Below are positions 10,199 through 61,877 of a stretch of 64,000 nt of DNA, one piece after another. The DNA is from Sphyrna mokarran. Its lineage: Eukaryota. Position 1 is the stretch's first letter; the number at the start of each line of letters is the position of its first letter. The stretch covers positions 11,160,001 through 11,224,000 of the forward strand of contig JAGIQG010000016.1 in the NCBI GenBank assembly GCA_024679065.1, written 5' to 3'. The notes beneath the pieces are model-generated. The model saw only the letters and a list, made by a program, of their open reading frames with translations. It searched no databases and was not told where the DNA came from. Position numbers and translations under genes: made by a program.

Positions 10199-10213
10199 AA
10201 AACCAAAGTAAAG
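10199..10213 (+). CDS. Microexon A1, 15 nt (ENQSK)
   Basis: ctgattgtattacag|AAAACCAAAGTAAAG|gtaatt. Confidence 0.7.
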
Positions 10214-61200: not shown

Positions 61201-61877
61201 GCAATGGCTATCGATATTAACTGGATTCAAGTACTGTGCGGCAACATGGATTTCGATGGAATTCATATTGTCTGTCTTCAATTTATGTGAGTGCCCGATG
61301 TGCACTGAAACATTTTCGAAGTAACTTACAAAGTAGGAAAACTACCTTTACGAATATAATAGCTTGCCCTGGTGAAATATAATTAGGCAAAAATTTATGC
61401 ACATCATACACTGAGAATAATTGAAAGTCATGAGAAAAGACACCCTCGGGCATTTTGCCTGTTTAATGTTGTTTGAACGGCCATTAATTAGACAATGCTT
61501 TGCATGCAATCAGAATACGAAACATAATCCCACAGATAGATAGAAAGATAATAAAGAGAGAGGGGGTGTGTGTGGAGGGAGAGGTGGGGGTAGTAGAGAT
61601 ACTGCGAGAGAGGGAGAGCGGGAAAGATTGAGCGGGAGAGAGAAAGAGTGTGTGTGTGTGCGCGTGTATGTGAGAGAAAGAGAGAGAGGACAGAGAGTCA
61701 GAGAGACAGAGAAATAATTTGATAGATGGATAAACAAATATGACAACGTTGTTTGGCTTGTTCCAATTATTTGTAAGTTGAAATCCGGAAATAAAACGTT
61801 TTTTTTTCCCTTATTAAGTGCTTCATTTCGGTTCTTTCCAGAAATAGTTGCGCTGATAAAAGAACTTCAAGATGCTG
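10199..61877 (+). CDS. Internal part of a multi-microexon gene encoding a long coiled-coil (identity unknown; 5' and 3' ends outside window)
   Basis: 17 AG/GT-flanked, 3n-length, phase-1 microexons splice without stops to [164 protein letters not shown]; recurring sizes 15/27/36 nt. Confidence 0.8.
11470..11720 (+). mobile_element. Degenerate tRNA-derived SINE with CR1-like tail
   Basis: gcggcac..cacagtgcaagggacc head, ggccatgctaaa core, atctatgaatcta tail. Confidence 0.5.
13155..13465 (-). mobile_element. tRNA-derived SINE (HE1-like) with CR1-like 3' tail
   Basis: acagcacggcaaacaggcccttcggccc tail; tgtgggaggaaaccggagcgcccggagaaaaccc core also seen inverted near 36000 and 52720. Confidence 0.8.
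13600..14410 (-). mobile_element. CR1 LINE 3' fragment, relatively young
   Basis: 242-aa [18 protein letters not shown]...[15 protein letters not shown]...[11 protein letters not shown]. Confidence 0.95.
16729..16761 (+). CDS. Microexon A2, 33 nt ([11 protein letters not shown])
   Basis: cactgttacag|ATTTAAGA...GATACCC|gtatgg; DL..K.K pattern shared with B2. Confidence 0.55.
17389..17424 (+). CDS. Microexon A3, 36 nt ([12 protein letters not shown])
   Basis: gttttattttgcag|AATTAAAT...GACATAG|gtgggg. Confidence 0.75.
19081..19107 (+). CDS. Microexon A4, 27 nt (EKKRKEKET)
   Basis: aatctacaaaacttcag|AAAAGAAG...GAAACAG|gtactt. Confidence 0.65.
19290..20040 (-). mobile_element. CR1 LINE 3' fragment, degenerate
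   Basis: ORF 19478-19870 VQQAIRKAN...[12 protein letters not shown]. Confidence 0.8.
20460..22592 (+). mobile_element. Young 5'-truncated CR1 LINE (ORF2 RT domain to 3' tail), few frameshifts
   Basis: 377-aa ORF with [35 protein letters not shown] motif; (TTCTATG)n tail. Confidence 0.97.
23594..23629 (+). CDS. Microexon A5, 36 nt ([12 protein letters not shown])
   Basis: tttattattttgtag|AACTCACC...GAACTGG|gtaggt. Confidence 0.8.
24850..26020 (+). mobile_element. CpG-rich element, possibly CR1 5'UTR/ORF1 (esterase-like) remnant
   Basis: [15 protein letters not shown]...VVCC resembles CR1 ORF1 RG.D...CG....R.VCCLPGA; GC content above flanks. Confidence 0.35.
26028..27760 (-). mobile_element. 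CR1 LINE, degenerate
   Basis: ORF 26832-27221 SGVPE...[17 protein letters not shown]; catagaatca tail at 26028. Confidence 0.85.
29226..29252 (+). CDS. Microexon A6, 27 nt (EEKLEKKVK)
   Basis: ttcttcttaatgatatacaacag|AAGAAAAG...GTAAAAG|gttatt (weak donor). Confidence 0.6.
31967..31993 (+). CDS. Microexon A7, 27 nt (EFNSLQETC)
   Basis: ttctatcttttgttag|AATTTAAC...ACGTGCC|gtaagt. Confidence 0.75.
32828..32854 (+). CDS. Microexon A8, 27 nt (xADLEQKIS)
   Basis: tttctatctcttacag|AAGCTGAT...ATTTCAG|gtgaaa. Confidence 0.75.
33917..33952 (+). CDS. Microexon A9, 36 nt ([12 protein letters not shown])
   Basis: ttttatggttcacag|AACTAAAA...AAGTTAG|gtgagc. Confidence 0.8.
35870..36030 (+). mobile_element. 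Degenerate SINE
   Basis: tgggtattctccgggtgttgccgtttcctcccaca core. Confidence 0.6.
39730..39744 (+). CDS. Microexon B1, 15 nt (EKEKK)
   Basis: tgattgaatctattgacag|AAAAAGAAAAGAAAG|gtaagc; flanks resemble those of A1. Confidence 0.75.
39770..40330 (+). mobile_element. Old CR1 3' fragment
   Basis: [12 protein letters not shown] motif in ORF 39777-40004. Confidence 0.6.
41120..41146 (+). CDS. Microexon B2, 27 nt (DLEAKEKID)
   Basis: ctacttttatctgtataag|ATCTCGAA...ATCGATG|gtgagg. Confidence 0.7.
42495..42530 (+). pseudogene. Microexon B3 lacking its expected acceptor (..[10 protein letters not shown]); decayed, or spliced from an upstream AG as a 60-nt exon (42471-42530)
   Basis: Consensus donor GG|gtaagt; 3' end AACGGCATGG resembles A3 AACGACATAG; no AG at -27, -30 or -36; 5' boundary uncertain. 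Confidence 0.45.
42905..43445 (+). mobile_element. CR1 LINE 3' fragment
   Basis: [22 protein letters not shown]...RGDLIETYK; tatgttcttatg tail. Confidence 0.93.
44732..44758 (+). CDS. Microexon B4, 27 nt (DEETREKDS)
   Basis: aatattactaaaattccag|ATGAAGAG...GACTCAG|gtaatg; acceptor resembles that of A4. Confidence 0.75.
44816..44963. other. Assembly gap (148 N)
   Basis: Run of n. Confidence 0.99.
46227..46262 (+). CDS. Microexon B5, 36 nt ([12 protein letters not shown])
   Basis: ctttcttctctccttatag|AAATAGCT...AATACAG|gtgaga. Confidence 0.8.
47090..47900. mobile_element. Two old CR1-like fragments (minus about 47090-47440; plus about 47480-47900)
   Basis: ggcaatgaaatccacaagttcaccac (3' region, minus); gatgacacaaagttggg-like DDTKLGG remnant (plus). 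Confidence 0.5.
50658..50681 (+). CDS. Microexon B6, 24 nt (VSCKQKKT)
   Basis: catttatacctgtatag|TTTCCTGT...AAAACAG|gtaaac; fills the slot expected for a 27-type exon; contains an A-run. Confidence 0.45.
52595..52925 (+). mobile_element. tRNA-derived SINE with CR1-like tail
   Basis: tgggtttctcc..tccggtttccttccacaccctaaagatgtg core; gggccgaaggacctgtttcacgtgctgt tail. Confidence 0.75.
53773..53808 (+). CDS. Microexon B7, 36 nt ([12 protein letters not shown])
   Basis: Branch-like actaac upstream; catccaaatcttag|AAGCAGAC...GAGTGTG|gtaagc. Confidence 0.75.
54950..55980 (-). mobile_element. Old CR1 fragment containing an internal tandem duplication
   Basis: ggagaccaaaac (reverse of QFWSP), ccttgtagagctgc (reverse of QLYK). 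Confidence 0.65.
55398..55747. repeat. Tandem duplication, 2 copies of about 175 bp (55398-55569, 55570-55747)
   Basis: Near-identical copies; ATCATG at the start of each copy and after the second. Confidence 0.92.
57460..58030 (-). mobile_element. Old CR1 3' fragment
   Basis: ORF 57736-57933 RFVRTLHGM...[11 protein letters not shown]. Confidence 0.6.
59100..59126 (+). CDS. Microexon B8, 27 nt (EQNDAAKSK)
   Basis: tttccattcattattag|AACAAAAT...TCAAAAG|gtatta. Confidence 0.7.
61545..61715. repeat. Degenerate GA/GT low-complexity microsatellite
   Basis: Directly visible. Confidence 0.85.
61842..61877 (+). CDS. Microexon B9, 36 nt ([12 protein letters not shown])
   Basis: catttcggttctttccag|AAATAGTT...GATGCTG|gtaagt. 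Confidence 0.85.

What the first reader, a model, noticed from the sequence alone, without database searches (positions are those of the whole stretch)
10199..61877. Hidden gene built from a 52-kb array of symmetric microexons encoding a coiled-coil
Seen in sequence: about 17 AG..GT-flanked segments of 15-36 nt, all 3n and phase 1, nearly all starting AA/AT and ending G. They concatenate stop-free into about 165 aa of E/K/L-rich helix. None shows up as such in the ORF track, and under 1% of the span is coding. Established: butyrophilin and chicken BG genes encode cytoplasmic heptads in tiny phase-1 exons (21/27 nt), and CD23 builds its stalk from 63-nt exons. Inference: this is an unusually expanded microexon-built stalk or tail of such a receptor, or a new family. 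Because every exon is symmetric, any subset can be skipped in frame, which would allow a splice-tunable rod length.
Basis: partly seen in the sequence, partly recalled or inferred. Interest (0 to 1): 0.9.

Follow-up and report, generated by a model that had tools for sequence, protein, structure and literature searches.

The report
Giant shark gene of tiny exons
These tiny exon-like pieces are a thin slice of what is likely one enormous (about 1.8 million base) cartilaginous-fish gene whose few hundred predicted mini-exons would spell a very long coiled-coil rod ending in a B30.2 binding domain, a protein family that databases label as TRIM ligases although no RING or B-box was found in it.

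Summary
Sixteen 15-36-nt AG..GT segments on the + strand join stop-free in phase 1. A model trained outside the window finds 12 strong hits on +, 0 on -, and 0.1 per shuffle. Segments chosen by splice score and length alone are stop-free in phase 1 in 67 of 69 cases, against 26 of 69 in either other phase. The array runs far beyond the window: 145 exons in 622 kb read contiguously, ending in a SPRY/B30.2 exon. Sampling traces it about 1.8 Mb upstream to a hydrophilic ATG exon. No Ig, transmembrane, RING or B-box exon was found, but 55% of the span was not read. 36- and 27-nt exons alternate into 21-residue, three-heptad units, and a 12-kb block is tandemly repeated 23 times. Six paralogues lie on this contig. 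With RefSeq shark, ray and chimaera models they form one SPRY clade, and those models' isoforms differ by 6-9-residue blocks. Best reading: a likely soluble, very long coiled-coil rod with a B30.2 head, resembling a BG/butyrophilin tail without its receptor. Splicing at this locus is untested. The scan noted such an array before in another genome (e1-8029722).

The parts
10199..10213 (+). 15-nt phase-1 symmetric microexon (predicted)
17389..17424 (+). 36-nt microexon (12 aa class, hydrophobic at 2, 5, 9)
   Evidence: 33.3 bits, out-of-window model
19081..19107 (+). 27-nt microexon
   Evidence: 17.2 bits
23594..23629 (+). 36-nt microexon
   Evidence: 23.2 bits
29226..29252 (+). 27-nt microexon
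   Evidence: 25.2 bits
32828..32854 (+). 27-nt microexon
   Evidence: 26.8 bits
33917..33952 (+). 36-nt microexon
   Evidence: 29.7 bits
39730..39744 (+). 15-nt microexon
   Evidence: (13.5 bits)
41120..41146 (+). 27-nt microexon
   Evidence: (14.8 bits)
44732..44758 (+). 27-nt microexon
   Evidence: 17.2 bits
46227..46262 (+). 36-nt microexon
   Evidence: 33.2 bits
48671..48697 (+). 27-nt microexon (starts GA)
   Evidence: 16.4 bits
53180..53197 (+). 18-nt microexon candidate, weak donor, uncertain
   Evidence: score 16.6
53773..53808 (+). 36-nt microexon
   Evidence: 16.9 bits
59100..59126 (+). 27-nt microexon
   Evidence: 17.2 bits
61842..61877 (+). 36-nt microexon
   Evidence: 35.6 bits
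1..64000 (+). The whole window lies inside the predicted gene. Parts outside the window, on G000:C668: terminal B30.2/SPRY exon 11338453-11338970; contiguously read array of 145 predicted microexons 10711783-11334304; 23 tandem copies of a block (one full unit read: three 21-nt exons) 9794344-10164142; candidate first coding exon 9499559-9499663
   Evidence: SPRY; array; tandem block; ATG exon, thresholds chosen after seeing it

Best explanation
The window's segments are predicted phase-1 symmetric microexons of a cartilaginous-fish gene that likely spans about 1.84 Mb and roughly 300 exons and would encode a soluble rod of about 2,600-3,000 residues of coiled coil capped by a B30.2/SPRY domain. 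How it likely works: the 12-residue (36-nt) and 9-residue (27-nt) exons pair into 21-residue, three-heptad units, and 21-nt exons add single heptads (shown in sequence). Two chains would zip into a long dimer (inferred) that holds a pair of B30.2 heads to bind a partner protein, acting as a cytoplasmic tether or scaffold like a butyrophilin/BG tail freed from its receptor (inferred by analogy). Rod length grows by tandem duplication of exon blocks (shown: 23 copies) and is probably also tuned by splicing. Skipping a 36+27 pair or a 21-nt exon would shorten the rod in register, while skipping one 27- or 36-nt exon would insert a register break or hinge (predicted).
For: Coding selection: 67 of 69 stop-free in phase 1 vs 26 of 69; strand and shuffle controls. 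Heptad geometry: hydrophobic fraction 0.85, 0.82 and 0.80 at positions 2, 5, 9 of 55 36-nt exons and 0.71 at position 4 of 70 27-nt exons; 36/15-nt and 27-nt exons alternate in 86 transitions vs 61.8 expected, reached by 0 of 10,000 permutations; a/d 0.67 vs 0.08 elsewhere in 22 36-27-36 triples. 3' end: SPRY exon in the same phase and strand; no other family SPRY exon found between 8.56 and 11.34 Mb in two searches. 5' end: + and - strand arrays diverge within 9.43-9.52 Mb, and each has one ATG exon with a phase-1 donor, both starting MW, ending LK and hydrophilic; 0 such exons on either strand of 714 kb. No Pfam hit in the 64 longest of 215 ORFs there. Relatives: SPRY is the only Pfam domain in 7 of 7 models scanned; the 1697-aa Callorhinchus and 945-aa Scyliorhinus models tile with this locus's 12/9-residue modules (z 13.2 and 11.3; four TRIM coils z 0-3.2); database isoforms differ by 9-, 9-, 9-, 6- and 7-residue internal blocks.
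Against: Only about 45% of the 1.84 Mb was read; four samples between 9.62 and 9.75 Mb (26 kb) held no convincing exon, so one-gene continuity is inferred. The full join of 145 exons shows no global 3.5-residue period; 24 B-B and 17 A-A neighbours break the 21-residue rule (missed exons, hinges or alternative exons). Four consecutive joins give a stop, one at a strong donor. Database relatives are much shorter (202-1697 aa) and some isoforms differ at the N-terminus. 3 of 8 relatives begin with a hydrophobic stretch. The start-exon thresholds were set after seeing the candidates, and no matching start exon was found for the next paralogue. One relative (P0156) does not tile with the modules (z 1.7). 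The partner and cellular role rest on analogy only.
Confidence: 0.55

Rival explanations
1. The array is real but is used as several shorter genes or isoforms from internal promoters, so the window's exons belong to a protein of some hundreds to about 1,500 residues plus B30.2, not one 1.8-Mb transcript.
For: Database relatives are 202-1697 aa with alternative N-termini; exon classes change along the array (mostly 21 nt at 9.8-10.5 Mb, 27/36 nt after 10.7 Mb); exon-poor samples at 9.62-9.75 Mb.
Against: No internal SPRY exon; no ATG exon of the 5' type in 714 kb; the CpG-rich patch inside the window is a dispersed repeat, not a unique island; automated models often truncate microexon genes (own knowledge).
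Confidence: 0.22
2. It is a membrane-anchored butyrophilin/BG-type receptor whose cytoplasmic heptad tail is hugely expanded; its Ig or TM exons lie in unread DNA.
For: Same phase-1 heptad-exon design as BG (PMC5938342, passages); best solved-structure match of the SPRY profile is BTN3A1 B30.2, E 4e-29, ahead of TRIM7 6e-25; 3 of 8 relatives start hydrophobic, one followed by basic residues; 55% of the span unread.
Against: No Ig or TM exon in the 105-kb 5' region; none of 150 scored V-set matches (of 1261 candidates) lies at C668 8.5-14.4 Mb; no Ig domain in 7 relatives; the SPRY clade holds no Ig-labelled row.
Confidence: 0.12
3. The exons are a combinatorial cassette library (each transcript picks a subset), giving a diverse family of rods that act as innate-immune sensors or decoys for TRIM/B30.2 pathways.
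For: 127 of 145 exons are freely interchangeable in frame; runs of same-class exons; single-block isoform differences in three species; two family members sit inside the large TRIM cluster on C1548.
Against: Strong 36/27 alternation, and T-ending exons followed by compatible partners in 3 of 4 well-supported cases, argue for a mostly fixed order; each isoform pair drops only one internal block; same-class neighbours also occur adjacent within one RefSeq model.
Confidence: 0.08
4. Chance splice-like motifs or a dead gene.
For: About 10 minus-strand segments pass the catalogue threshold, so a few catalogue entries are false; one family member on C1548 carries a TGA in its SPRY exon.
Against: Strand, shuffle, length and phase controls; intact SPRY exon; 18 tandem copies keep an open exon with both splice sites.
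Confidence: 0.03

Closest known systems
Chicken BG genes (butyrophilin family)
   Same: Coiled-coil tail encoded by many phase-1 heptad exons (21 nt, a few 18 or 24; 27-37 exons in the alleles described), split first codon, length variation and alternative splicing (PMC5938342, PMC4046983, PMC8813856; passages read).
   Different: BG has signal, IgV and TM exons and no B30.2. This locus has B30.2, no Ig/TM found, mostly 36+27-nt pairs, likely about ten times more exons, over megabases.
Butyrophilins (BTN/BTNL)
   Same: Heptad repeats followed by a terminal B30.2 domain; BTN3A1 is the top PDB match of the SPRY profile.
   Different: BTNs have IgV-IgC-TM and only a few heptads (PMC4046983, passage). 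This SPRY forms its own long-stemmed clade apart from all Ig-labelled rows.
TRIM-B30.2 proteins (the RefSeq labels TRIM39/58/69-like, A33-like)
   Same: Coiled coil followed by B30.2; two family members lie in the genome's TRIM cluster.
   Different: No RING or B-box in 7 relatives, none in the 5' region, and none of 143 B-box matches (150 of 325 candidates scored) at C668 8.5-14.4 Mb. The coil is built from microexons.
Enterophilin/enterocytin (mammalian gut leucine-zipper + B30.2 proteins)
   Same: Long heptad rod plus B30.2 without a receptor part (recalled, not seen in a call); reported to bind sorting nexin 1 (PMC13749957, table row and reference title).
   Different: The bovine enterocytin-like SPRY (P0150) falls outside this clade, so the likeness is probably convergent; the recalled rod is about 45 heptads, far shorter.

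Membership tests
B30.2/SPRY domain proteins | C-terminal SPRY domain | tested here: met
   Pfam PF00622 44 bits vs cut-off 26.3; PDB matches. Its link to the window's exons is inferred from strand, phase and order.
Butyrophilin / BG | Phase-1 symmetric heptad microexons encoding a coiled coil | tested here: met
Butyrophilin / BG | Signal peptide and extracellular IgV (IgC) exons | tested here: not met
   None in the 105-kb 5' region (64 of 215 ORFs scanned, all >=92 aa) or in 7 relatives; V-set search partial (150 of 1261 scored); 55% of the span unread
Butyrophilin / BG | Transmembrane exon before the heptads | tested here: inconclusive
   None seen at this locus; 3 of 8 database relatives begin with a short hydrophobic stretch that may be a gene-model artefact
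Butyrophilin / BG | SPRY groups with Ig-bearing butyrophilins | tested here: not met
   16-row clade, SH-aLRT 100, no Ig-labelled row; quick tree, midpoint root, sister group unresolved
TRIM | N-terminal RING and B-box | tested here: not met
   regex labels; partial
TRIM | Antiparallel coiled-coil dimer | not tested
   No model obtained
CD23 / C-type lectin stalk receptors | C-terminal C-type lectin domain | tested here: not met
   The terminal exon is SPRY
Enterophilin | SPRY orthology to enterocytin-like proteins | tested here: not met
   P0150 lies outside the clade
Expressed, alternatively spliced microexon gene | Junction reads at this locus | not testable with these tools
   Only indirect: database isoforms of relatives; their read support was not checked

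The most novel reading that the evidence does not exclude
Cartilaginous fishes carry an undescribed family of megabase genes, here one of about 1.8 Mb with about 300 microexons (titin-scale exon count), that build a several-hundred-nanometre cytoplasmic coiled-coil tether with a B30.2 head from a two-exon code: paired skipping sets rod length, single skipping inserts hinges, and block duplication extends it between lineages.
Probability: 0.35. Interest if true: 0.88.

Novelty: new variant of a known kind. Interest (0 to 1): 0.74.

Why it matters
If confirmed, this is among the most exon-rich genes known (own knowledge) and is made almost wholly of 15-36-nt exons in kilobase introns, the class that aligners and gene finders miss. 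It marks a family present in sharks, rays and chimaera that current annotation gives TRIM or other unrelated names, likely in truncated form. It separates reading-frame symmetry from coil register, so it offers a direct test of how microexon splicing shapes a protein's length and flexibility, and of how several hundred weak microexons are spliced in order. It also shows the BG/butyrophilin heptad-exon design at about ten times the known scale, attached to B30.2 and apparently without a receptor, which bears on how TRIM and butyrophilin tails arose.

Tried and rejected
RNA: no RNA holder listed for the SPRY exon and 3' UTR, so no reads were laid. No structure or dimer model was obtained (no verdict), so oligomer state and parallel versus antiparallel geometry stay open. 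A word-based homologue search with the single SPRY exon among longer proteins found none; the HMMER search did. The start of the next paralogue (C668 11.339-11.400 Mb) was not found: 52 of 126 ORFs scanned in Pfam gave only sub-threshold matches, and no convincing ATG exon appeared. The candidate first exon matches only itself in the genome. No GC-donor 27/36-nt exons were found. The CpG-rich patch at window 24750-26000 was rejected as an internal promoter island because it is a dispersed repeat with at least 40 copies. Candidate 45959-45973 was rejected. Fourier analysis of the whole join gave no heptad peak. Literature: nine searches listed no description of this family; searches returned no paper at all. 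The library lacks most subscription journals, and no supplements were opened. PMC54938 was not held.
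Full report
Setting. The window is G000:C668:11160001-11224000 of a 2.77-Gb genome. It is about 39% GC and holds LINE reverse-transcriptase fragments. The closest named relatives of the gene described here are all cartilaginous-fish proteins. Coordinates outside 1-64000 are the C668 position minus 11,160,000; Mb values are C668 positions.

Observation. 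The named junctions lie on canonical GT and AG sites. Position weight matrices trained on 77 seeds from outside the window gave 12 hits of at least 15 bits on the window's + strand, none on -, and a mean of 0.1 (maximum 1) in 30 dinucleotide shuffles; the minus strand of all 714 kb held one such hit. With splice scores alone, 628 kb of + strand gave 38 segments of 27 nt and 31 of 36 nt among 153, and the - strand 2 and 8 among 92. Of those 69 segments, 67 are stop-free in phase 1 against 26 in each other phase, while other 3n lengths show no bias. This test does not use the peptide and indicates coding selection. In the window, 17 segments pass the catalogue threshold. One (45959) has a poor donor and would create a stop, leaving 16 that all end in G and join stop-free over 453 nt.

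Extent and 3' end. The array continues on the + strand through every contiguous stretch fetched upstream, and downstream to about +174 k. The catalogue holds 145 exons between -448 k and +174 k (70 of 27 nt, 55 of 36 nt, 9 of 15 nt, 11 other; 1,429 codons; median gap 2.5 kb). This model was trained on the same region; 10 minus-strand segments pass the same threshold, a rough false-positive figure. At +178453 (C668:11338453) a strong phase-1 acceptor opens a terminal exon of 172 codons with a stop and a downstream AATAAA. It is a SPRY/B30.2 domain (Pfam E 2.7e-11), and a profile of it matches BTN3A1 best among solved structures, then TRIM7, TRIM58 and TRIM21.

5' end. Five-kb samples showed + strand microexons back to 9.52 Mb and - strand ones from 9.42 to 8.56 Mb, where a paralogous SPRY exon lies on the - strand. 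In the 105 kb around the switch, each strand has exactly one exon with a good acceptor, an early ATG, an open frame and a strong phase-1 donor. Both start MW, end LK, are hydrophilic and point away from each other (9,499,559 on +; 9,466,804 on -). No such exon occurs on either strand of 714 kb, but I set the thresholds after seeing the candidates. The 64 longest of 215 non-repeat ORFs there have no Pfam match. Genome-wide V-set and B-box searches show nothing at C668 8.5-14.4 Mb, but scored only 150 of 1261 and 150 of 325 candidates. If the ATG exon and the SPRY exon belong to one gene it spans 1.84 Mb. I read about 834 kb (45%) of that. Adding 145 counted exons, about 15 at 10.44-10.525 Mb, about 69 inferred in the tandem block and about 0.1 per kb for unread DNA gives roughly 300 exons and 2,600-3,000 residues; this is an estimate. 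Four samples at 9.62-9.75 Mb held no convincing exon, so continuity is not shown.

Anatomy of the rod. The 12-residue exons are hydrophobic at positions 2, 5 and 9 (0.80-0.85) and partly 12; the 9-residue exons at position 4, with K or C at 7. Joined, these fall at 2, 5, 9, 12, 16, 19: three heptads in 21 residues. 36/15-nt (A) and 27-nt (B) exons alternate more than chance (86 vs 61.8; 0 of 10,000 permutations). In 22 36-27-36 triples the a/d positions are 0.67 hydrophobic against 0.08 elsewhere; without the 27-nt exon the next exon's a/d fraction falls to 0.03. So frame symmetry is not register symmetry. Against a single unbroken coil: 24 B-B and 17 A-A neighbours, and no global 3.5-residue period. 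Eighteen of 145 exons do not end in G; four consecutive joins give TAA, three at poor donors and one at a strong donor, which suggests a missed partner exon. Between 9.9 and 10.5 Mb most exons seen are 21 nt. A block there is repeated 23 times at 85-100% identity between 9.79 and 10.16 Mb; 18 copies match the exon with both splice sites within two mismatches, and one match lies in the opposite-strand paralogue. The one full 11.9-kb unit read holds three 21-nt exons and no large exon. Growth by block duplication is therefore shown.

Family. Six SPRY exons on C668 (8.56-, 11.34+, 11.88+, 11.93-, 13.72+, 14.32+ Mb) score above the TRIM cluster on C1548, and two more relatives sit inside that cluster, one with a TGA. 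In a quick maximum-likelihood tree of 165 SPRY domains (31 isoform or cluster-member ids and domains under 125 residues left out; domains cut with a profile of family members) the six form a clade with ten database proteins (SH-aLRT 100, stem 1.2), none labelled RING, B-box, Ig or TM by my regex. Eight of the ten carry or cluster with names, from Leucoraja, Scyliorhinus, Callorhinchus, Narcine and Cetorhinus, as TRIM39/58/69-like, A33-like or nuclear-pore anchor-like. Pfam finds only SPRY in 7 of 7 scanned. The 1697-aa Callorhinchus model tiles with this locus's modules (z 13.2; 21 abutting pairs vs 0.7 in shuffles), as does the 945-aa Scyliorhinus model (z 11.3); two shorter ones do so weakly (5.0, 3.2), one does not (1.7), and four TRIM coils give 0-3.2. 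RefSeq isoforms in three species differ by single internal blocks of 9, 9, 9 and 6 residues, and an older model by a further 7, each readable as starting with D or A as a G-split codon requires. RefSeq isoforms usually rest on RNA-seq (own knowledge; not checked), so this is indirect evidence of skipping. Three of eight models begin with a hydrophobic stretch; this may be read-through into an intron's pyrimidine tract or a real anchor.

Mechanism. Shown: microexon array, heptad code, terminal SPRY exon, tandem growth, paralogues, SPRY clade. Inferred: one transcript, soluble protein, dimeric coil, splice tuning. By analogy only: a tether or scaffold role. A soluble BG tail affects actin-myosin interactions and displaces tropomyosin (PMC8813856, PMC5938342; passages), and enterophilin-1 binds sorting nexin 1 (PMC13749957; table row). 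I put the whole reading at 0.55, shorter internal-start products at 0.22, a membrane receptor at 0.12, a combinatorial library at 0.08 and artefact at 0.03.

Comparison and novelty. It works like a BG/butyrophilin tail but fails the Ig test for that family and the RING/B-box test for TRIM. BG tails have 27-37 exons of about 21 nt and no B30.2; butyrophilins have only a few heptads (PMC5938342, PMC4046983, PMC8813856; PMC12841164 notes variable heptad number; all passages only). The enterophilin architecture is recalled, not seen in a call. Nine literature searches listed no description of this family, within a library that lacks most subscription journals; no supplements were read. I rate this a new variant of a known kind, interest 0.74.

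Noticed in passing
window 24750-26000: CpG-rich 1.25-kb dispersed repeat, at least 40 copies at 81-88% identity across contigs, no Pfam match in three of its ORFs; an unclassified mobile element.
   Followed up: partly
window 20458-22594 (+), 13154-14419 (-), 62606-63775 (+), 42904-43446: Broken LINE reverse-transcriptase fragments in the introns; RVT_1 E 1e-20 for 20458-21648.
   Followed up: partly
window 55398-55753: 180-bp two-copy tandem duplication, 90% matches, intronic.
   Followed up: no
window 1011-1046, minus strand: Isolated 36-nt AG..GT segment with a strong donor but no coiled-coil character; probably chance.
   Followed up: no
window 44816-44963: 148-nt run of N 57 bases after the 44732-44758 exon; a small exon there could not be seen.
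   Followed up: no
L029-L031 (C668 11.395-11.419 Mb): Microexons of the next paralogue begin about 56 kb after the SPRY exon and resemble exons near C668 11.015 Mb of this gene; its first coding exon was not found.
   Followed up: partly
G000:C668:8.56-9.47 Mb, minus strand (L079-L086, L095-L099): Head-to-head paralogue of about 0.9 Mb with its own microexons, 62% identical SPRY exon and mirror-image ATG exon, 33 kb from this gene's candidate start; a shared promoter region is possible.
   Followed up: partly
G000:C1548:91-113 Mb: Very large TRIM-B30.2 cluster (107 of 121 SPRY matches, many B-box matches) that also holds two close relatives of this SPRY family at 99.10 and 101.42 Mb, one with a TGA.
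   Followed up: no
C668:11032806, 11054797, 11066645, 11074329 (L014-L034 region): Four strong exons end in T; three are followed by exons whose first two bases avoid a stop, so skipping the partner could truncate the protein.
   Followed up: partly
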